Shown: in pieces, positions 1 through 42,265 of the stretch
Layout of the letters: each line of letters starts with the position of its first letter
Numbering within the stretch: position 1 is the stretch's first letter
NCBI RefSeq assembly: GCF_006345805.1
Contig: NC_043002.1
Span: forward strand, 34,410,001 to 34,474,000
Source: Octopus sinensis
Taxonomy: Eukaryota
Direction: 5' to 3'
Length of the DNA: 64,000 bases
Program-made: the position numbers and the translations under genes
The notes under the pieces: generated by a model
Told to the model about the DNA's origin: nothing
Databases searched by the model: none
The model's input: only the letters and a program-made list of their open reading frames with translations

Positions 1-283
1 TCTTTCTGTGTCGCTCTTCGCCTTATCCTCTTTTTCTCTCTCCTTTGTATTTCTCTTCTATTTCCCTTCAACTAATCACGTGAAAGCCTTACTATTGCAT
101 TCCTCCTAACTCACATCATGAACGCTTCTCTCCCCTTTTCTCCCTCTCCCCTTTTCTCCCTCTCCCCTTTTCTCCCTCTCTCTTTTTTCTCTCCTTCTTT
201 CCTTTCTCCCACTTTTTCTCTAATCACGTGAAAGCGTTACGGACGGGCTAAGTAATGCAATGACAAGCTGAATTATTATAAGA
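1..283 (-). mobile_element. Possible 5' portion of a non-autonomous Helitron-like element
   Basis: Ends in ttattataaga (minus strand: TCTTATAATAA), like the other Helitron-like 5' termini in this window. Internal repeat ctaatcacgtgaaagc at ~72 and ~220. The 3' end is outside the window. Confidence 0.3.
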
Positions 284-540
284 TACTTTAACCGTTTGAG
301 TTATTTCTCTAAGTTAATTTTCATTTCTCCTATATACACACGCACATACACACACATACACACGCACTCATACATATATACATTCATACATACATACAAA
401 TATATGTGTGTGTGTGTGTATCTGTGTATATACACATATATATATACATGTTAAACTATATTAATTGAAGGTGAAAATTATATAGTTGTTAATCTCTTAC
501 CAACGGTGGATAATTATGCCTAGGGCCAAAGGCAAATAAA

Positions 541-1000
541 CGGTGACCATCCCACTATTTATTCAAACCAAACATATATTATCTATATTATCTAAAAAAC
601 AATTTTTTTTTTATTAAAAAAAACGGTTGGTCGAGATTTTAATAGAGACTTGGTTGCAATTTCTACCATATATTTCGACCACGTAGAAGCTCCCATGCTG
701 GATCAAAATTGTGTTTTATGTCTCATAAGCTGTGTTGAAAGAGTAGCCAGAGTTCAAAATCTGGGTTGAAGGTACACCAACCGTAACCATCCCGTCGTTT
801 ATTCAGGCCAGACATGGAGAATTTGAGACTACATTAGCCAAGGTGTACTTAAAGAAAATGGCTGGATGCAATTTGATGGAAAGTTGGTTGCTATTTCTAG
901 CTTGCATTTCGACCACATAGAGGTTCCCGTATTAGATCAAAATTATGTTGTATGCTGCATAAGGCGTGTACAAAGACGAGCCAGAGTTCAAAATCTGGGG
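541..1000. repeat. Diverged tandem duplication, 2 units of ~240 bp
   Basis: accatccc..tttattca..ttggttgc(a/t)atttct..tttcgaccac(g/a)taga..gatcaaaatt..agccagagttcaaaatctggg occurs at ~541-770 and again at ~781-1000. Confidence 0.75.
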
Positions 1001-2176
1001 CGGATATAATTGATAGGTTATATTGAAGGAATTGAATAGCAATGAAAAGAGTGGAGACACTTGTATTTACTGCGGGTAAATGTCGACTGTTGACTTTAAT
1101 AACTTCTCAAATAATTTCACTATACGCAGATAAACTCATAATAGAGTTGACTGTTTTTGAAAGAAAATACATCTGTCTGTCACTTTCTCTCTCTCACCTA
1201 CCCTTTCTCCCACCCCCTCTCTCTCTCTAGTATATATGTGTGTCTGTGTGTAAATAGGGAACAGCTTTTCTTTCAAACATGTTATATTTAAAACACGACT
1301 GTGTTCGAGTTACATTTATTTCGTCAATGATTTTCCATACTTCCTTGTTAGTCCTTTTAGATTGGGACAATAACGTTCTTACATTTACTAGTCCATTAAC
1401 GTTTCAAGACTGTTTCGGCCTCTTTATCTGGACGAAGTGATGATGAAACGGACATGTTGTTCAAGCACTTTGCATTTGATCGTGGGAATATTGTTATAAT
1501 TGATTCAATAATCAATGTTATTACTGATATAATAACCAATACCGGATTTAAAAATTATAGACTGCTGAAGACCAAGTATGCATGGTTTATTTTATTTGCG
1601 TCTATTTTCGTTTCTATTTCACTATTATTAATAAAATTTCTATAGTTTTCGTCTGATTTTTATGAAATTATATATATGAAATTGCTACGCTGTCAGCTAG
1701 TATTTTCTTATGATATTTTATTTCGCGTATTGTTTACATATTTAAGTAAGTTCGAGTAAACTTTAAACTGTTTTATTATAATATCTATTCTGAGCTGTTT
1801 AGTATACATTGCTTTATATAATGAGCTGCATTTTATAATGAGTTGTAAATGCGTAGTCAATTGACGATGAAGTGTCGTACTTGTGTGCTTAATGTAAACG
1901 TTTCAGTTATGAACTTTACAATTTTCATGGTTACATGATTACATTGGAATTTATATATTACATAGGTTGTCTGATGTACGCTCTACGGTTTATTAGTTTG
2001 TAGTTTCGAGATGTGGAGTTTTTTTTTTTATTGTGGTGTTATTGTAATATATGTTAACTATTGTCTGTGGTTAGGTTATTGCTTTTTCCTTCCGTTTTGT
2101 TAATATGTTGAGGAAAAATTGGCCCACTTTGTAACCAAGGAGAATTGGGTTATTTTGATATATGATAACGCAATAA

Positions 2177-3117
2177 TTATCAAAGCTTATTACCGCTCAA
2201 CAAGATCCCGCGTATGCGTGTACGATGAAGTGTCGGAACCCTTCGAAATATGGTCTGGCGTTCGGCAAGGATGTGTTCTTTCGCCGACTCTTTTCAATTA
2301 CGCCGTCGACTGAATCACCAAAAATGCATTAAGGGAGTTCCCCGGTGTCACTGTTGGTCACAACTTTTCTGTCAAGGATCTAGACTATGCAGATGACATT
2401 GCGATACTTGGCGAAACATTTGCTGACGTCCAGTTTGTTATCATTGAGCTCCAGCGTGTTGCATCGCAGATTGGTATGAAAGCCAATGCCTCGAAGACCA
2501 AAATCCTCACAGCCGGCTTCGCCCCACCAGACAAAACACCCATTGTCCTCAATGGTGATATTCTTGAAGAGGTTGAGAGTTTCAAATACCTTGACGCCAT
2601 CATTACAGCCACAGGTCAAGGTGAGGCTGACATTAAAACACGAATCGACCTCGCTCGCCAAGCCTTCAACCGACTCAATGCACGACTCTGGTCAAGATCT
2701 GAGATCCAACGCACCACCAAAGTACGGATCTACCAAGCACTAGTGCGAACGATTCTCCTTTACGGCAGCGAGTCATGGCCGATGAGGGTGGAATATATTA
2801 AGCGACTAGAATCCTTCGATCACCTCTGTCTACGCCGCATCCTTCGTGTCCGATGGCATCACCATGTCTCCAACAATTCGGTGCGACACCAGTGCAAAAT
2901 CACCTCCCTCCGACAAATCAAGGCTGATCTGGAACCCAACCTAGGCCCCCATGTCTACGGCGTTCGCCGCTGGAATAGGGAGTGGTTGGAGATCACGCGG
3001 TCATTAGCCTCAAATCGCCAGGCCTGGTCGGTGTTTGTGAGCGATACAGCATTGAGGATGAGTTGAAGCCAGCTCGACCCACCCCGGGTGAATACTGTCT
3101 CAAGACAAGAAGAAGAA
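2177..3117 (+). mobile_element. 5'-truncated RTE-clade LINE (RT C-terminal part, pseudogenised)
   Basis: Translates to GVRQGCVLSPTLFNYAVD*, DLDYADD, KTKIL, FKYL and RIYQALVRTILLYGSESW..CLRRILRVRW. One in-frame stop, an apparent deletion near 2910, and a short (AAG)n tail. GC-rich relative to its flanks. Confidence 0.9.
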
Positions 3118-3905
3118 CGAATGATTTGTATATTTTGACTTGGCGTTCCATCTATTTGTATGGAGCTAGATGAATTCGGTTTTATATGTTTTGCATGGCG
3201 TGGATAATTTATTATAGTATTCGTTATCAACTAATGATTGTTTTATATGCAAGATTTACTAATTTAAAGATTCTTAATTGGACGCAAATGTAAAAACTCA
3301 TCTTAGGAGGGATTTGATTACAAATAATTTGTATCTACCAGGACTCTACTATCACCGTACACGCATAGACATCTTTTAGTTTTGTGTGTATACTGAGTAG
3401 CTGCATGTTTTGTTCCTTATTACTACATCTATATCTAAAACTTGAGTAGTGTTGAGTAGTGACTTTATTCTTGAGCTATATTGGTTAGTGCTATTTTTGA
3501 TATCATCTTTACAGATGCGAAAGCACAGATCTACCAACTTATTTCTGTCATAATATGGGACAATATTTAAATCAGGGTGGAAAACTTAAAACAGCAATAT
3601 CGTATGAAGCACTTAACTGAGAATTATTTACATATGTTGTGTCAGGGGTAATAGTTTTTAGACCTTGATTTTTTTTTTTATCTCTGTAACAACGAGTATA
3701 AATATGGCGTTTTGAAGAATACATTTGTTAATGAATACAGTAATTTACTTATCTATTTATTTATTGGTGAAATTGGATACGAACCAAGTCGGCTGCTACT
3801 CGGGTGTCCATTTTGCAGGACGCAGAAACATACGCACACGCGTGCGCACACCTGCACACGAGCACATATATAATATTTATATAAATAAATATATAATATG
3901 CACAC

Positions 3906-12237: not shown

Positions 12238-13700
12238 CGGGAAGCTTTATGAAAATAAACAAAAGACGAAGGCAGGTGGAAAACAAACGAACAATTGTAT
12301 TAGTATGGCGCTCAGGAAATATAAATAAAACAAGTCTTTAACGTTTCGAGCCTACGCTCTTCAACAGAAAGATACACAGAGAGAGAAAAACACAGAAAGA
12401 AGGAGAGAAAAAAAATGCGTGCAGTAGCTAACGAATCAACATGGCGATCTGATTTCGGCCAGAGGTCAAAGATCAAACATGAGACGCGAGAGCGAAATAA
12501 GGGGAGATAATAGGGTTGATAAAAGGGTTGAGGGACCAGCTAAAAGTGCGTGGGAGGGGTCTGGATGTGTGTATGTATAGGGTTGGTGTATGTATTAGTA
12601 TGTATAAGGGTGTGTGTGTGTGTGTGTGTGTGTGTATGAGAGAGTATTAGTGCGTAAGATTGGTCTGGACGTGCGTATGTATGGGGTTGGTGTATGTATT
12701 AGTATGTATTAGTATGTATTAGTACGTATTGGTATGTATAGGTGTGTGTGGTGTGTGAGAGAGAGTATAAGTGCGTATGCGGGGTCTGGACGTGTGTATG
12801 TATAGGGTTTGGTGTAAGTATTAGTATGTACTAGTATGTATTAGTACGTATTAGTATGTATTAGTTGGTGTGTGTATTAGTATGGCACATCATATGTGAT
12901 GTGATGTGTAAAGTCATGTGGTGTAGTGAGGAGAAGAGGGGGAGGGGGAGAAGAGAGGAGGGGAAGAAGAGGGGGAGAGAAGGGGAGGGGAAGAAGAGGG
13001 GGGAGGAGAAGGGGGAAGAGGAGAGGATGGGGGAGAAGGAAGGGGATGAGGGGGAGAAGGAGGAAAGAGGGAGAGGGGGAGAGAGAAGGGGAGAGAGGGA
13101 GTGAGGGAGCAGAGGGAAGGGGAAGAGGGAGGGAGGGAAAGAGGAAGAAGGGAAGGGGAGTAGGGGTGAAAGGATGAAGGACTGAAGAAGTAGGGGTCGG
13201 GGGGAGAAAGGATAGGTGAGGAGGGGGTGAGGTTAGATGAGGAGGGGGGAGAGTTGAGACCAAATGGCGTATAAGAGCGAAGAGAGAAGATTAATTCTGT
13301 TCACGCGCAAACGCAACGGGAATGGGATGGCCTCAAACGTGTAAGGACAAACCGTTGCAAGGATAGGTGTTTTGCAAGGAGTGACCGGTGGAGCGGAAAT
13401 GGCGTGAGACCGGTGTGGTCGTTCGCAAGGTGTGGAGATGTCACGAAGGTGTTCCGCGAACCGGTCAGCCAAGCGGCGTCCCGTTTGTCCGATGTACAAG
13501 GAATTGCAGAGAGAGCAAGAGTTGCAATAGATAATATTGCTGGAGGTGCAGGTGAAGGAGTGGATGATGGGATAGGGTCGATGGTGGGTGCTAGTGAGGC
13601 GGGTGGTGTTGGAGAGGTAAGGGCAAGTGCGGCAACGTGGGCGGGAGCAGGGGAACGAGCCGGGTTGGGAGGTAGGGTCAGGGAAAGAGCTATGGACCAC
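12238..13700 (-). mobile_element. 5'-truncated Penelope-like element (Neptune-type): GIY-YIG remnant, low-complexity 3' region and hammerhead-containing terminus
   Basis: Translates to CSRPRCRTC (Cys linker), FTCTSSNIIYCNSCSLCNSLYIGQTGRRLADRFAEHLRDI, then frameshifted PVSRHF..GHS..REQ..LIFSL..PFGLN. The hammerhead lies downstream on the same strand. Confidence 0.9.
12335..12372 (-). ncRNA. Minimal hammerhead-like motif with variant core CUGUUGA
   Basis: tcttt CTGTTGA a gagc-gtag-gctc GAAA CG TT aaaga: 5-bp stem I, 4-bp stem II, stem III reduced to the palindrome ACGT. Confidence 0.7.
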
Positions 13701-13738
13701 ATATACATAAACACATACATGCCTATATGCAAACATAC

Positions 13739-13779
<41 letters not shown>

Positions 13780-13961: not shown

Positions 13962-15174
13962 CAGGGGTTGAACAAAATAATGGAAATATAATTTTGTTCT
14001 ATAATGGCATCATAATTTTGAAATATCTATAAAACCGTCAAAAGCTTGTTTTTTTATGTTTTTTTATTTATTATTAGTGTTGCTTAGTATGTTTTGCTAA
14101 AATTGCTGTTTCTTTTCAGATATCATCAGAAAAGGGTAATTAAAATTCATTAAAATGACAAATTTATCGGACTTTCAAAGAGGGCAAATTGTTGGTGCTC
14201 GTATGACAGGCGCTAGCGTAACGAGAACAGCCGAAATGTTTGGTGTATCAAGTACTGTATCGAAAGTAATGACAGCCTTTGAGAAAGAGGGAAAAACCTC
14301 CTCGTCGAAACAAAACTCCGGAAGAAAACCAAAATTTACAGATAGGGACCGTCGGACTCTTACGCGAATTGTTAGAAAGGATCACAAAAGTACAGCTCCC
14401 AAAATTACTGCAGAGCTTAATGATCACCTCAAGAACTCAGTTTCCACAAAAACTTTTCGCCGGGAGCTGCACAAAGCCGGATTTCACGGGAGGGTTGCGA
14501 TCAGAAAACCACTATTTTCAAGAACAAACGTTGCAAAGCGTATAGAGTGGAGTAAAAACCTACAGAATTGGTCCCCAGAGCAGTGGAAGAATGTTATTTT
14601 CTCAGACGAGTCATCCTTTACTTTATTTCCGACCACCGGCTGAGTATACATTTGGAGGCAGCCAAAAGAAACATTTGACCCAGACTGCCTTCTTACAACT
14701 GTTAAACATGGAGGAGGATCTGTGGGGCTATATCTTGGAAATCTTTCGGCCCAATGGTTTCCCTCCATGGCAGAATTAAGAGTCAAGACTATTTAAGCAT
14801 TTTATCTTATCGAATTCATTCTATGGTTGCAGAACTGTTTCCGGAGGGAAACGCAATCTTTCAGGATGATATTGCACCAATTCACACAGCTAATGTTGTT
14901 ACTGAATGGCACGAGGAACATTCTAGTGAAGTTGAACATCTTATCTGGCCACCGTAGTCCCCAGACCTCAAAATTATTGAACATTTATGGTGCATTTTAG
15001 AAAAACAAGTAAGGAGTCGATATCCTACACCATCATCACTACAAGAACTGAAGACAGTTTTAGCTGAAGAATGGACAAAGTCCCTTTGGATTACTGCCAA
15101 AGGCAGTCCTACCCCATTTTAGAATAAATTTGTTTGAAATTTTAAGTTGTTTCCATTAATTTGTCCAATCCCTG
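13962..15174 (+). mobile_element. Tc1-family DNA transposon with DD36E spacing (Incomer-like), 1213 bp
   Basis: 25-bp TIRs caggggttgaacaaaataatggaaa / tttccattaatttgtccaatccctg (3 mismatches); TA at 13960-13961; transposase inside. Confidence 0.92.
14155..15090 (+). pseudogene. Tc1 transposase pseudogene
   Basis: Paired-like HTH N-terminus, GRKPK, IFSDES, TVKHGGGSV, FQDD and WPP*SPDLKIIEHLW; stops at 14641 and 14955 plus a frameshift. Confidence 0.92.
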
Positions 15175-35193: not shown

Positions 35194-35236
35194 CATTATA
35201 TATACAAATGTATACAAATTATATATATATATATAT

Positions 35237-35354
35237 AACTAAAAATAAGGGTGTCTGAGAGACACCACCATGCCGAAATAGCAGTCCCTGACTCTAAGGG
35301 ATTTGACAGCTATTTCGGCATGGTGGTGTCTCTCAGACACCCTTATTTTTAGTT
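35237..35354. repeat. Perfect 46-bp inverted repeat (26-nt spacer) overlapping a degenerate hammerhead
   Basis: 35237-35282 is the exact reverse complement of 35309-35354. Minus strand reads aagggtgt CTGAGA gacaccaccatgcc GAAA tagctg TC aaatccctt. Confidence 0.9.
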
Positions 35355-35480
35355 GTAAAAAATTATTACCTTTGTATGGTATTTTTTCTCATGGTGCCCA
35401 CTTGATAATATCGATATTTAAATATCGATATTATCCTTATTTATATATATATAAATACAGATATATATACTTTGTATATA

Positions 35481-38400
35481 ATAATAATGTTCGTCCTTCG
35501 GTTCGAAGATGACCAACTGACATCATCTGATGGAACTGCCGCCATGAGACCGGAGGTGGCTGGTGAGGCCAATCCGGGCAAGGAAGCCCCTCCCACAGGT
35601 GGGGCAGAAGTGGGTAGGGGCAGTGCTACTGGTGCAGGCGGCTCTGACTTTACGCATCTGACGTTTCTGCTCCGCTGACCGAATCCGTCCCTCCTCGGCT
35701 GTCCCTGCTCCCACGGTGATTGCGCTGCGCCAGGATGAGCGGTTGGCAGCAAGTGTCTCCCAGGTCTCTGTTCCGATGGAGAAGTCTTTGAGAGAGACCT
35801 TGAGACTATCCTTGTAGCGCTTTTTCTGCCCTCCGACTTTGCGCCTGCCCTGGCCGAGTTCACCGTAGAAGAGCTGTTTTGGGATGCGAGTGTCGGACAT
35901 GCGGGTGACGTGGCCCGCCCATCTCAGCTGGGCCTTGCGCATGATTGTGATGGTGCTAGGGAGATCTGCCTGCTTCAGAACTTCCGTGTCTGGGACTTTG
36001 TCCTGCCAGCGGATGTGAAGGAGATTCCGAAGACACCTGAGATGGAAGTGGTTTATCTGGCGCTCGTGCCTTCGGTAAGCAGTCCACGTCTCGCAGCCGT
36101 ATAGTAGAGTGGTAAGCACGACTGCCCGGTAGACTTTCAGCTTGGTGTTGAGGCTGATTCCTCTCCGCTCCCAGACTTTCTTTCGCAGTCTCCCAAACGC
36201 GCTGCTTGCCTTGGAGATTCTGTTGATGGTTTCAGCATCTATGTTGGCATTGCAGGAGAGAGTGCTGCCCAGGTAGGTGAAGTTTTCCACCACTCGTAAG
36301 ATCCGTCCGTTCACCCTTATCTGAGGCTCATGGTATTGTTTGCCGGGGGCTGGCTGAAACATCACTTCGGTTTTCTTTGCACTGATGGTGAGACCGAAGT
36401 TGTCACAGGCTGATGAGAACCTGTCCATCTCGAGCTGCATCTCCTGCTCATCGATTGCATTAAGGGCGCAGTCGTCAGCAAAGAGAAAGTCTCTGACGAC
36501 TGTCTCCCTCACCTCGTCAGCAAAGAGAAAGTCTCTGACGACTGTCTCCCTCACCTTTGTGACAACCTGCAATCTCCTGGAGTTGAAAAGTTTCCCGTCT
36601 GTCCTGTACTTGATGTTGATACCGGACTTGCAGTCCCTAAAGGCGTCGGACATCATTGCCGAGAACATGATGCTGAACAGTGTTGGGGCCAGGACACAGC
36701 CCTGCCTGACTCCGTTTGTCACCTGGAAGGCTTCAGATGAGTCGCCGTCCTCAAGGATTCTGGCTGTCATTCCGTCGTGGAACTGGCGGACAATTGCAAT
36801 AAATTTGCTGGGGCAACCAAATTTTCCCATGACCTTCCATAGTCCCTCCCGACTGACTGTATCAAAGGCCTTGGTGAGGTCAACAAAGGTCATGCAGAGG
36901 TCAAGGTGCTGCTCCATGCATTTCTCCTGGAGCTGGCGGGCGGCGAATATCATGTCAGTGGTCCCTCGACCCGCACGGAAGCCACACTGGCTCTCAGGGA
37001 GAAGGCCTTGCTCCAAGTGTTCCAGAAGGCGGTCAAGCAGGACCCGGGCCAGGATCTTGCCTGCTATGGACAAGAGGGAAATACCTCGGTGGTTGTCGCA
37101 GGACTGCCGATCTCCTTTCCGCTTATAAATGTGGACGATTGTTGCATCCCGGAAATCTTGAGGGAGTTGTTCCCTGTCCCACATCGACTGGAACAGGCTG
37201 GTGAGCTGACTGATCATGGTGGGGCCGCCCGACTTGAACACCTCTGCAGGGATGGCGTCAGAGCCTGGAGCTTTGCCGGTGGACATTTTTTTGATGGCTC
37301 TGCTCACTTCCCCGACTGCAGGGGGAACAGCCAACTCGTGGTTTGTCGGCACCTGGGTGAGTCGTGCGATGGCTTCCTCGTTGATCTGGGCTGGTCGGTT
37401 GAGCACGATGTTGAAGTGCTCCGCCCATCTCTCCAGGATCAGCCTCTTGTTAGTCAGGAGTGAGGTTCCATCTGAGCTGAGCAGGGGGGTTGATCCAAAG
37501 GAGAACTGCGGTCCATAGACAGCTTTCAGCGCCTCGTAGAATTTCTTGGTGTCGTGTTTGTCTGCGTATCCCTGAATCTCATCCGCCTTGGCGCTTAACC
37601 ATGCGTCTTGCATGAGGCGGAGTTTAGCCTGGACTGTGCTGCGAATGTTGTTGAAAGCGGCCTTCTTTGCCGTGCAGGTGGTGTCATTTTGGTGAGCCCG
37701 CAGCAGACGGCGTTTCTCTTCCAGGAGCTTTTGGATTTCCTGGTCGTTTTCGTCGAACCAGTCCTGGTGGTTCCTCGTAATTTGGCCCAGAGTTTCAAGG
37801 GCGATGGAATGAACCGTGTCCCTGAATGATTCCCACTGCTCATCGATGCTGGACTGGTCACTCCGAATGTCCAACAGCTTACTGTCCATACGTGACTGGA
37901 GATCTTGTGCAGTCAGCTGGTTCCTTAATTTCGTGATGTTAAGCTTCCTCGTCACTTTCTGACCCTGTGGTCTTCTCTTAGGTCGGATGTAGAAATCCAT
38001 CCTGGAGATGATGAGGCGATGGTCCGTCCAGCAGTCAGCTCCGCACATGGCTTTGACCAGTCTCACGTCCCGCCTGTCTTTCGCCCTGACGATGACGTAA
38101 TCTATCAGATGCCAGTGTTTGGAGCGTGGATGCATCCATGATGTCTTGTTGCGTGTTGGCAGACGGAACAAGGTGTTGGCGATGGTAAGATCATGAGAGG
38201 CACACGCACGCAGGAGGAGCTGTCCGTTGCTGTTGCACTTTCCGATTCCTTGCTTTCCCAGTACGCGATGCCAGGCTTGGTGGTCAGTCCCGACACGGGC
38301 GTTAAAATCCCCAAGGAGGATGAGCTTCTCAGGCTGGGCTGACGTGATGAGGGAGTCGAGTTCCTCATAGAACCTGTCCTTAACCTCTTCAGGGTTGGTC

Positions 38401-39497
38401 ATGGTGGGGGCGTAAGCACTGATGATGGTCGCACTAGTCTTGTTTCCAAGTGGGAGCTGCATCTTCATCAGCCGATCGTTGATACCCTCGGGGGGGCTTT
38501 CCAGTTTCCGCACGTGTACTGACTTAATGGCAAAACCAACACCAGCCTCACGACGCTCTTCGCTGCTGCGACCACTCCAAAAGAAAGTGTAGCCGCCGCC
38601 TGTCTCTGTCAGCTGGCCTTTGTCCGCAAGGCGGGTCTCGCTCAGTGCTGCAATATCGACACTGTATCGGCTCAGTTCTCTGGCCACCAGGGCAGTTCGT
38701 CTCTCTGGTCTGTCCGCTTTGGTGTTGTCAAGCAGAGTTCTCACGTTCCAAGTTGCGAAAGTGAGCACCTTTGTTTGTTTTCTTCTTTCTTTGTTTCGAC
38801 CGCTTGGAAAGGATCCCCGCCAGCCGCGGTTTGCTGACCAGGGTGAGGTGAGGCAGGCTATGTTTAGGGCAACCTTTTCTAGCCCCGTCCTCATGCTGGG
38901 GAGGCGAGCAGAGCGATCCTGAAGAGGGCTGCTCGGTCACTCAGGAGGCTGCCGGACTCCACTGCTGCCTCAGTTCAGTGAGGGGCGACCACATGTCCTG
39001 AGCCGCCTGTGTGTGGGTTCACGACTGCAGCTCCCAGTGTATCCTCACCTGCTACTTCGCCGTTTCCCCATCGCCACAGGACTTTGGGATGGTGTCATGG
39101 CGTCATGATGTCGTGACATGCGCGTGACTTGGATTATAGTGAGGGTGACTTGCGCAGGATCAGCCTCACTCTCTCGTCCTGGTGCGCCGGATCCAGTGGC
39201 AAGACAAAGTCAAGACGACTGGGGGTAGACCAAGATGCAGGAGCTGCCGGAAGGTGGCACGCATGGCGCAATCCAACCGCCTTAGGGGCTCCACTCCGGA
39301 TTTTGGATGGCCATTGACTCATGAGAGAGTTCCTCTGCCCTTTGACAAGTTTTGTTTTTAGTCCTGCTGGGTGTCCAAATCACCCTCCTCACCAAGAAAT
39401 CTTGGTGGGGTTGCCAGTTTAGTCGCCAACGACCCGACCATGTAACAGGTTGTACTGGGTTACATGTTACCAGTAGCTCCAAGCGGAGACCTGACAC
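35481..39497 (-). mobile_element. Full-length RTE-clade LINE, 4017 bp, with 13-bp TSD
   Basis: TSD tactttgtatata at 35468-35480 and 39498-39510; ~600-nt 5' UTR; single long ORF; short 3' UTR with hairpin cttcg-aac-cgaag and (ATT)n tail. Confidence 0.97.
35523..38894 (-). CDS. RTE ORF2p: APE endonuclease, reverse transcriptase and C-terminal C2H2 zinc finger (1123 aa)
   Basis: EN motifs TWNVRTL, ALSETRL, SAYAPT, LGDFNARVG, LIDY, TDHRL. RT motifs KAPGSD, RGISLLS, QCGFR, FVDLTKAFD, GVRQGCVLAP, FADD, YLGS. Zinc finger CPTCGRGFLARIGLTSHLRSH. No stops. Confidence 0.97.
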   Translation of the reverse strand: MRTGLEKVALNIACLTSPWSANRGWRGSFPSGRNKERRKQTKVLTFATWNVRTLLDNTKADRPERRTALVARELSRYSVDIAALSETRLADKGQLTETGGGYTFFWSGRSSEERREAGVGFAIKSVHVRKLESPPEGINDRLMKMQLPLGNKTSATIISAYAPTMTNPEEVKDRFYEELDSLITSAQPEKLILLGDFNARVGTDHQAWHRVLGKQGIGKCNSNGQLLLRACASHDLTIANTLFRLPTRNKTSWMHPRSKHWHLIDYVIVRAKDRRDVRLVKAMCGADCWTDHRLIISRMDFYIRPKRRPQGQKVTRKLNITKLRNQLTAQDLQSRMDSKLLDIRSDQSSIDEQWESFRDTVHSIALETLGQITRNHQDWFDENDQEIQKLLEEKRRLLRAHQNDTTCTAKKAAFNNIRSTVQAKLRLMQDAWLSAKADEIQGYADKHDTKKFYEALKAVYGPQFSFGSTPLLSSDGTSLLTNKRLILERWAEHFNIVLNRPAQINEEAIARLTQVPTNHELAVPPAVGEVSRAIKKMSTGKAPGSDAIPAEVFKSGGPTMISQLTSLFQSMWDREQLPQDFRDATIVHIYKRKGDRQSCDNHRGISLLSIAGKILARVLLDRLLEHLEQGLLPESQCGFRAGRGTTDMIFAARQLQEKCMEQHLDLCMTFVDLTKAFDTVSREGLWKVMGKFGCPSKFIAIVRQFHDGMTARILEDGDSSEAFQVTNGVRQGCVLAPTLFSIMFSAMMSDAFRDCKSGINIKYRTDGKLFNSRRLQVVTKVRETVVRDFLFADEVRETVVRDFLFADDCALNAIDEQEMQLEMDRFSSACDNFGLTISAKKTEVMFQPAPGKQYHEPQIRVNGRILRVVENFTYLGSTLSCNANIDAETINRISKASSAFGRLRKKVWERRGISLNTKLKVYRAVVLTTLLYGCETWTAYRRHERQINHFHLRCLRNLLHIRWQDKVPDTEVLKQADLPSTITIMRKAQLRWAGHVTRMSDTRIPKQLFYGELGQGRRKVGGQKKRYKDSLKVSLKDFSIGTETWETLAANRSSWRSAITVGAGTAEEGRIRSAEQKRQMRKVRAACTSSTAPTHFCPTCGRGFLARIGLTSHLRSHGGSSIR

Positions 39498-39564
39498 TAC
39501 TTTGTATATATATACATTATATATACATATTTATATATAGATACAGACACACACATATATAGCT

Positions 39565-40734: not shown

Positions 40735-42265
40735 GTGAACTGTCAAATTTTGCTGTAATAACTACATACAACTAACAAACAATCATACATACTCTCTGCT
40801 CTCAATGTGCTTGCAGTGCCACTACTCATACCAACATTTGGGCTGCTTGATTAGACGCTTGATGAGATCCGAGCCATTAATTTGAAAACCCGAAGCACAC
40901 ATAATGTTCACATAAACAGTGACGTAGACCGCCTCTTCTTAAACTGAAAACAAGGCGGCAGAGGTTTAACATCGATACAAAATACCTTTGAATGTCGTAT
41001 CATATCCCTTGGACAAAATCTTTTAACCACCAAATGTCGAAGTGCATCTCTTGACCAAGTTTGCATACATGATGCTGGTAACCTCATAAGACTTGAAAGA
41101 CAACTCCTTGAGCAACACTTTTTGTCTGGTAACCTAGAATACATGACCAAAGAAGTCGCACAACTCTACCACAACGTATCATCAGATTAAAGGATGTGCC
41201 TATATGAGCAGAAGACTATGCATGGATATGTTAGTAGAAAGCTCCGTGATGATAGAAACATCGATCATCAAAACAGTTTATCATGAACCAATAACCGGAT
41301 TACTACCCTCCACCACCACTTTGAAGGATACCCGTTTGCAATCCAGGAACAGGAAATATCAACTGAGTACCTGATACACAAAAGGGATAGAAATGCAGGA
41401 AAAGCCGGAAAATGACAACCGATGCAGACTTTGTGGAGTACACACTGAAGGTATTACCCACATCATAAGCAGTTGTCCGAAAATGTCAACACAGTATTAT
41501 CTACCGATGAGACATGACGTTGTAGCTAGGACACTCTATAATGAAATCTGTTGGAAGGACAAAGAAATAAGAACCCACTATATGGTAGAAACCATAGCCA
41601 CTCATAATGAAAAAAGGAATACTGGTGGAATGTACCAGTGAAGACCTCAATAAAATGTAAGCACAATAGACCTGATATAATGATTTGGGATAGAGAAGAG
41701 AAACTATGCACAATTGTGGAAATTAGCAGCCCAGCGGATGTTAACATAAAGCTGAAGATCATTGAAAAAGAGAACACCTATGCTGAACTATTGAGAAATC
41801 TGCAGTTACTCTATCCAGATTACAAGTTCAAGTTTACACCTATAATTATTGGGGCCCTGTGATATGTAACGCACTGCCTGAATCTTTAGAAATTTGGCAT
41901 CTCAAAAATCAGAAAGAAGAAAGCTAATTCGAAGACTACAGATCCAGTCCATCACTGGAACTGTAAAAATCTGTAAAACTTTCCAGAAGTTTATCATTTT
42001 TTAGCATGCCTAGATATGCAACTGTATGCATGAGAATACATACATAAAGCATACAAATCTGCACATACTTACATGAATACATACATACATACATACATAC
42101 ATACATACATACATACATACATACATACATACATACATACATACATACATACAATGAAAAATACCGTTAAAGTTGAAATTCCAATGACGGAACCTTGGAT
42201 CTAGGTTAGAAACCGGTTCTTTCTCTATCGGCAAGAAATCTTGAAATACACTGAATAATGACATA
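40735..42265 (+). mobile_element. 5'-truncated R4/Dong-like LINE with RLE domain, 3' end in (TACA)n
   Basis: AVPLLIPTFG, HINSDVDRL, GGRGLTSI, AIQEQEIST, zinc knuckle CRLCGVHTEGITHIISSC, RHD, NRPDIMIWD..IVEISSP..EKENTY and PIIIGAL; several stops and frameshifts. Confidence 0.92.

What the first reader, a model, noticed from the sequence alone, without database searches (positions are those of the whole stretch)
35468..39510. Full-length, apparently very young RTE LINE with foreign-looking composition
Seen: identical 13-bp TSDs, a complete 5' UTR, an uninterrupted 1123-aa ORF, and GC/CpG content visibly far above the surroundings and above the old RTE at 30.2-31.6 kb. Known: RTE-clade LINEs are the LINEs most often horizontally transferred, and a potentially active RTE has been reported as expressed in octopus brain (recall; identity with this copy not established). 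Inference: recent, possibly polymorphic, and possibly horizontally acquired.
Basis: partly seen in the sequence, partly recalled or inferred. Interest (0 to 1): 0.7.

Follow-up and report, generated by a model that had tools for sequence, protein, structure and literature searches.

The report
Octopus brain LINE, likely recent immigrant
This is a young full-length copy of RTE-2_OV, the jumping gene reported as expressed in octopus brain, carrying its own 42-base duplication at the polymerase's active site, and its family likely entered the octopus lineage from another animal only a few million years ago, which would argue against an ancient role in building the octopus brain.

Summary
Observation confirmed: 4,017-bp minus-strand RTE LINE, identical 13-bp TSDs, 1123-codon ORF, 55% GC. 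It is RTE-2_OV (5 of 5 tested published primers match exactly; siblings encode the published 1109 aa). The copy is young (6 own substitutions). CpG is not enriched beyond GC content. Horizontal origin gains real support: no copy examined lies more than 5.2% from this one over its length; the next resident RTEs are at most 61% identical in the endonuclease, outside relatives 85-90%; the family nests in a clade with dog-whelk RTEs; GC3 is 0.66, like outside relatives, against 0.38-0.41 in six near-intact resident RTEs. Its first 193 bases are a cassette shared with unrelated resident families, while five outside relatives carry a different one. Known element, new case of a known process. The scan's earlier notes had no look-alike of this 5' end.

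The parts
35468..35480 (.). Target-site duplication, copy at the element's 3' end
   Evidence: identical to 39498-39510; 13-mer found twice in window
35481..35522 (-). 3' UTR (42 nt) ending in a short (ATT)n tail
   Evidence: same end in sibling copies
35523..38894 (-). Single ORF, 1123 aa: APE endonuclease (aa 47-295), RT (aa 594-878), C-terminal CPTC...H...H finger
   Evidence: model matches L1 ORF2p best, E 3.5e-37
36472..36555 (-). Private exact 42-bp in-frame tandem duplication over the RT catalytic motif (aa 781-808; first copy reads FADE, second FADD)
   Evidence: absent from 44 of 44 other copies and from 3 of 3 long contigs of other runs
38895..39304 (-). Inner 5' UTR (element nt 194-603), 80-91% identical to four outside RTEs, more than the ORF is (70-76%)
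39305..39497 (-). 5' cassette (element nt 1-193) shared at 87-88% with resident RTE families whose ORFs are only 29-49% identical; replaced by another ~190-nt sequence in five outside relatives
39498..39510 (.). Target-site duplication, copy at the element's 5' end

Best explanation
This is a full-length genomic copy of the octopus LINE RTE-2_OV, likely inserted by target-primed reverse transcription within roughly the last half million years, and its family likely arrived by horizontal transfer from another aquatic animal some 3-9 million years ago and has kept transposing since. Shown: family identity, anatomy, a ladder of subfamilies under purifying selection, the private duplication, the mosaic 5' UTR, closer relatives outside the genome than inside. 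Inferred: dates (one borrowed rate), the transfer and its direction, and that the 5' cassette drives expression. The duplication most likely arose in or after this single insertion and was not propagated; the model keeps the catalytic hairpin and loops out 12 residues, so the copy is probably impaired, not certainly dead.
For: Identity: 5 of 5 tested primers match with 0 mismatches; paper gives 3327 nt/1109 aa and an amplicon of 3651 nt; 4 siblings encode 1109 aa; primer span here minus 42 is 3650. Youth and activity: 22 of 45 copies within 0.7% of this one; pN/pS 0.19 for changes shared by 4 or more copies vs 0.70 for singletons, Fisher p 5e-9. Shallow history: endonuclease search of the own genome gave 93 of 150 hits at 79-99%, 0 at 66-78%, 57 at 52-65% (counted by hand); 12 of 12 fetched suspected family hits, chosen mostly from the low end and including the 65% one, were family copies at most 5.2% diverged in their main alignment; 30 truncated 3' ends went no deeper than old full-length copies over the same stretch. 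Outside relatives: P0001 90%, P0003 86%, P0002 85%, a frog RTE 68% in that region; P0002 is 91-92% identical to two Nucella lapillus proteins. Tree: nested with P0001 (SH-aLRT 99) in a 13-row clade with Nucella (99); octopus RTEs as one clade rejected, p-AU 2e-5. dS to four metagenome relatives 1.0-1.5, unsaturated. GC/GC3 0.55/0.66 vs 0.54-0.55/0.64-0.66 in the two closest metagenome loci and 0.43-0.45/0.38-0.41 in six near-intact resident copies; lineage-fixed synonymous changes 26 GC-to-AT vs 12 back, p 0.03.
Against: The closest relative (P0001, 84%) has no named host and could be a cephalopod. No near-identical donor was found (best DNA 73-77%). Genome searches score only the best candidates. 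Non-monophyly of one host's RTEs is expected from ancient lineages anyway. Over all sites the fixed-change bias is not significant (38 vs 27, p 0.21) and the equilibrium GC3 interval reaches 0.64. Two resident RTE loci have GC 0.48-0.51, and 36 metagenome relatives have median GC 0.50, so high GC is partly a clade trait. The 5' cassette is 10-12% from sampled resident cassettes yet changed little within the family, so that exchange looks older than the visible amplification, which fits longer residence.
Confidence: 0.65

Rival explanations
1. Vertical persistence: the lineage has been in octopods for tens of millions of years at low copy number, older copies are too few or decayed to be found, and only the burst is recent; any horizontal step lies deeper.
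For: Unnamed closest relative at a distance (0.2 changes per site) compatible with a split among octopods; old-looking split of the 5' cassette; capped searches.
Against: Empty 66-78% band; the genome does retain other repeat families at 84-88% DNA and 80-92% protein identity; GC3 still at the level of outside relatives; 21 letters of the O. bimaculoides RTE consensus match this family no better than shuffles, 13 vs 12-13 (gapless test, weak).
Confidence: 0.27
2. Copy level: the 42-bp duplication is an assembly or polishing error and this locus is an intact 1109-aa copy.
For: Arms are identical; many young copies show indel errors; another copy has a 210-bp duplication with 0 substitutions between arms though it is older; no run showed the duplicated joint.
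Against: This copy itself has no small frameshifting indels; with 0.15% divergence identical arms are expected; contigs drop single-copy variants and none of this copy's six own substitutions appeared either.
Confidence: 0.4
3. The 5' cassette came in with the invader (or an earlier relative) and spread to resident families, instead of being captured from them.
For: One outside element, L111, carries the cassette at 79-81% ahead of a related body; the RTE-2 variant is nearly private: 103 exact motif matches, 27 of 30 fetched continue into RTE-2, 2 are RTE-2 fragments, 1 is another element; no immediate donor family found.
Against: Five closer or comparable outside relatives carry another 5' sequence; resident cassettes are far more numerous (about 1,070 candidates) and head at least four other downstream sequences.
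Confidence: 0.35

Closest known systems
RTE-2_OV of Octopus vulgaris (Petrosino et al. 2022, PMC9115989; passages, section 8, first part of section 9, one supplement part seen)
   Same: 5 of 5 tested primers exact; 1109-aa ORF in siblings; ~600-nt 5' UTR; EN, RT and zinc finger; amplicon length within 1 nt once the duplication is subtracted.
   Different: This copy has 14 extra residues at the RT motif; genomic 3' UTR is 42 nt, not ~600 (the transcript likely reads into flanking microsatellite; inference). The paper's passages seen give no origin, age or 5' mosaic. The published transcript itself could not be read.
Horizontally transferred RTE LINEs of aquatic animals: RTE-Snek in sea snakes (PMC7846101, passages), Perere-3/Sr3 (bioRxiv 2024.11.24.625053, passages), BovB (PMC6036668, passages)
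   Same: Shallow family, best outside matches at about 75% DNA identity, no donor identified, tree discordant with hosts.
   Different: Absence from sister species, shown for sea snakes, is untested here; host is a cephalopod.
5' UTR recruitment by mouse L1 (Sookdeo et al. 2013, PMC3600994, abstract only)
   Same: Sharp exchange of the 5' end between LINE families.
   Different: Here in the RTE clade, one cassette heads several families with 29-49% identical ORFs, and function (promoter, ribozyme or other) is untested.

Membership tests
RTE-clade non-LTR retrotransposon | Single ORF with APE endonuclease and RT, no ORF1 | tested here: met
   no long ORF in the 603-nt UTR
RTE-clade non-LTR retrotransposon | Short 3' UTR with short-repeat tail, TSD, no LTRs | tested here: met
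   42-nt UTR, (ATT)n tail, 13-bp TSD
RTE-clade non-LTR retrotransposon | Placement among named RTE references in an RT tree | not tested
   no reference set in the tools; rests on identity with RTE-2_OV, placed in RTE by the paper
RTE-2_OV | Published primer sites and 1109-aa ORF | tested here: met
   5 of the paper's primers tested, all exact; 4 of 45 copies 1109 aa
RTE-2_OV | Whole-sequence identity to the published transcript | not testable with these tools
   transcriptome supplement gave no text
Retrotransposition-competent copy | Unaltered RT core | tested here: inconclusive
   14-aa duplication; QG-to-ADD span 78 vs 63-66 in 119 of 120 homologs; model keeps the hairpin but follows the alignment given
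Horizontal transposon transfer | Higher identity than host divergence allows | tested here: met
   78-79% aa over 96% of the ORF to P0002, itself 91-92% to dog-whelk proteins; 72-75% to a named Nucella protein; gastropod-cephalopod split over 500 My is recalled knowledge
Horizontal transposon transfer | Element tree discordant with host tree | tested here: met
   (40 of 58 rows; near-duplicates and one very long row dropped before the test); most rows have unnamed hosts
Horizontal transposon transfer | Patchy distribution among sister species | not testable with these tools
   no cephalopod genomes held; run organisms are coded
5' self-cleaving ribozyme of RTE elements (as Perere-3, PMC8501958) | Match to a known ribozyme fold | tested here: not met
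   no Rfam ribozyme hit in this UTR or six related loci; folding z -0.45; 6 of 55 predicted pairs with double changes; divergent variants could be missed

The most novel reading that the evidence does not exclude
The LINE cited as evidence for transposon involvement in octopus cognition is a horizontal immigrant younger than the vulgaris-bimaculoides split, which took over a promiscuous ~193-nt 5' cassette used by several unrelated resident RTE families; that cassette, not co-option by the host, explains its neural expression, and the element may still be moving between species.
Probability: 0.3. Interest if true: 0.72.

Novelty: new member of a known kind. Interest (0 to 1): 0.5.

Why it matters
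RTE-2_OV is the main molecular exhibit in the debate on whether transposons shaped octopus brains (PMC9115989; PMC12988792, passages). If the family is a few million years old in this lineage and came from outside, it cannot have contributed to the origin of those brain structures, and the question becomes a simple presence/absence test across Octopus species. The shared 5' cassette gives a concrete sequence to test as the cause of expression and suggests how a transferred LINE adapts to a new host. The single copy is otherwise ordinary; its duplication warns that a stop-free ORF is not proof of competence. I found no statement of a horizontal origin in the held library; most subscription papers and repeat databases were not searchable.

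Tried and rejected
CpG enrichment as a sign of foreign origin: rejected (o/e 0.67). Identical TSD as a clock: too short. Empty allele: no second haplotype of the right flank among 43 matches in the own genome; junction reads across the 5' end were not obtained; polymorphism stays open. Expression: no RNA holder listed on record, no evidence either way. Duplication in source-like data: run X18 shows no joint for or against. Deeper subfamilies: two walks from older copies and a probe with the most diverged 3' end found none. An allelic twin among siblings: none shares flanks or the six own changes as a set. A first de-duplication of loci wrongly merged some copies; counts come, and the variant check covers 41 copies only. 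A first arm comparison for L151 had a wrong offset; one search is right. Ribozyme in either 5' module: no hit. Outside 5' module in the own genome: only a 63-nt tail in 5 loci of another RTE family. Reading the published transcript from supplements failed; four supplement files were not searched and two are too large, and they may bear on identity and on the O. bimaculoides element. A paper on HDV-like ribozymes in RTEs is recalled only, not held. Horizontal transfer out of octopus into the coded organisms C, F, G: not accepted; those runs also hold other octopus-type repeats, so congeners or contamination explain them as well.
Full report
1. Observation. The element spans 35481-39497 on the minus strand (4,017 bp) between identical 13-bp duplications; the 13-mer occurs only at these two places in the window. 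It has a 603-nt 5' UTR, one ORF of 1123 codons with APE endonuclease and RT domains and a 42-nt 3' UTR with an (ATT)n tail. GC is 0.550 against 0.35-0.37 around it; 0 of 104 four-kb windows outside pass 0.427. CpG observed/expected is 0.67, below the flanks, so only GC is unusual.

2. Identity. Five primers published for RTE-2_OV of Octopus vulgaris match once each with no mismatch (chance 0.00 in shuffles). The paper reports a 3327-nt, 1109-aa ORF and an amplicon from 253 to 3903. Four of 45 distinct copies in this genome encode 1109 aa, and the outer primers here span 3692 nt, 3650 without the duplication below. The family is therefore RTE-2_OV; the host species was not determined, and the published transcript could not be read.

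3. Bases 36472-36555 are an exact tandem of 42 bp that doubles VRETVVRDFLFAD at the catalytic motif. It is absent from 44 of 44 other copies and skipped by the long contigs of 3 of the 4 runs laid; the fourth shows no joint either way. In 119 of 120 homologs the QG-to-ADD span is 63-66 residues, here 78 (one row was a mis-hit of the pattern). AlphaFold puts the second copy into the catalytic hairpin (pLDDT about 86) and loops out 780-791 (under 50), but it follows the alignment, so this shows only that an intact site is possible. The copy also has P513T and A777V at residues kept in 118 and 117 of 120 homologs. Whether the duplication is biological or an assembly error is open (about 60:40).

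4. Age and activity. This copy has six substitutions of its own (three recur in single old copies) and differs from its nearest siblings at 11-12 of about 3,970 sites. With the rate implied by PMC13282606 (JC 0.09 = 25 My; part 1 of 3 read) 0.15% is about 0.4 My (inference). Copies form a ladder of subfamilies; changes shared by four or more copies have pN/pS 0.19, singletons 0.70 (p 5e-9): continued transposition under selection, then neutral decay. A 23-base 5' motif has 103 exact matches, in line with about 94 endonuclease-bearing copies; DNA searches list about 3,100-3,500 candidates, mostly unscored. The copies studied are best hits, not a random sample.

5. Origin. An endonuclease query returned 93 of 150 hits at 79-99%, none at 66-78%, 57 at 52-65%. 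Twelve fetched suspected members, mostly from the low end and including the 65% hit, were frameshifted or old copies, at most 5.2% diverged in their main alignment; the remaining resident hits are at most 61%. The last 305 nt diverge faster (7.6-11.6% in old full-length copies), and truncated ends go no deeper. Outside proteins reach 85-90% in the same region, and even a frog RTE (68%) is closer than any resident. P0002, 78-79% identical overall, is 91-92% identical to two dog-whelk proteins. In a 40-row tree the family is sister to P0001 and nested in a clade with Nucella; holding octopus RTEs together is rejected. dS to four metagenome loci is 1.0-1.5 (two more saturated); at the family's own rate (about 5% dS between old and young groups, roughly 2-3 My) that is tens of millions of years, far short of a mollusc-class split (rough inference). 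Six near-intact resident RTE copies, 95-97% alike within their families, have GC 0.43-0.45 and GC3 0.38-0.41, two others 0.48-0.51; this family has GC3 0.66 like its two closest metagenome loci, with a net synonymous drift to AT (26 vs 12, p 0.03; all sites p 0.21). Singleton mutations point to 26% GC, so contrast with an old relic alone proves nothing.

6. Mosaic 5' UTR. From nt 194 the UTR is 78-86% identical to L095, L125, L126, L133/134 and L124, all alignments starting at that base; upstream these share another ~190-nt sequence. Nt 1-193 are instead 87-88% identical to the 5' ends of resident families with 45-48% identical ORFs, and the same cassette precedes at least four other downstream sequences, one of a family under 33% identical. 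Cassette tree and ORF tree disagree, so exchange occurred. Direction and time are not fixed: outside element L111 carries the cassette (79-81%), no immediate donor was found, and the split from resident cassettes looks older than the family's amplification. It has hairpins with some compensatory changes but no Rfam match; promoter or processing signal is a guess.

7. Other runs. Twenty of 24 listed runs, under 8 coded organisms, hold at least two thirds of the sampled words. X3, X8 and X9 each give one 3.8-3.9-kb contig with 19-20 other letters, sharing changes at 37447 and 38142 not seen in 41 copies here; the published primer has this genome's base at 37447. They also hold resident-type cassettes and, in two, the neighbouring foldback repeat at low depth. 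Congeners, contamination or transfer cannot be told apart.

8. Mechanism. Shown: anatomy of a target-primed insertion and an active lineage. Inferred: RNA from a source copy was reverse-transcribed at an AT-rich nick giving the 13-bp duplication; a slip with one base of microhomology, or an assembly join, doubled 42 bp; the lineage entered from another aquatic animal and runs on a 5' cassette common to resident RTEs.

9. Verdict. Known element, ordinary copy with one private lesion; a new, fairly well supported case of RTE horizontal transfer and 5' exchange that bears on a current debate. Interest 0.5.

Noticed in passing
window 35233-35357: Foldback repeat with near-perfect ~50-bp arms just beyond the 3' TSD, MITE-like, high-copy in run X18.
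   Followed up: partly
window 38895-39097 and 38778-38894: Element nt 401-603 are 85-91% identical to three outside relatives, more than the ORF; the first 40 codons are absent from most homologs and unstructured in the model, so the true start may lie further in.
   Followed up: no
window 2176-3063: Fragment of a second RTE-like family, 30% identical in protein, with many copies at 80-92%; its full-length members appear to begin with the same 5' cassette.
   Followed up: partly
window 14155-14643: Tc1/mariner transposase fragment (Pfam HTH_Tnp_Tc3_2).
   Followed up: no
window 13133-13740: GC-rich (0.536) fragment that I took for Penelope-like from memory; no Pfam match.
   Followed up: no
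window 40803-41500: Dispersed repeat with many copies at 84-88%.
   Followed up: no
L020, L024, L025, L030, L051, L145: Sibling copies with inverted or displaced pieces, some resembling twin priming.
   Followed up: no
L151 (G000:C17:12812700-12817200): 210-bp internal tandem duplication with 0 substitutions between arms.
   Followed up: partly
G000:C29 1315852, 1367239, 1807530, 16579275: Four old copies with identical scores, probably segmental duplicates.
   Followed up: no
last 305 nt of the element: Diverges about twice as fast between old and young subfamilies as the rest.
   Followed up: no
L095:242-432: The outside 5' module begins sharply and has several complementary segments by eye, possibly pseudoknotted; no Rfam match.
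   Followed up: partly
flanks of 45 copies: Many insertions sit in TA-rich microsatellites; preference not tested against a genome background.
   Followed up: no
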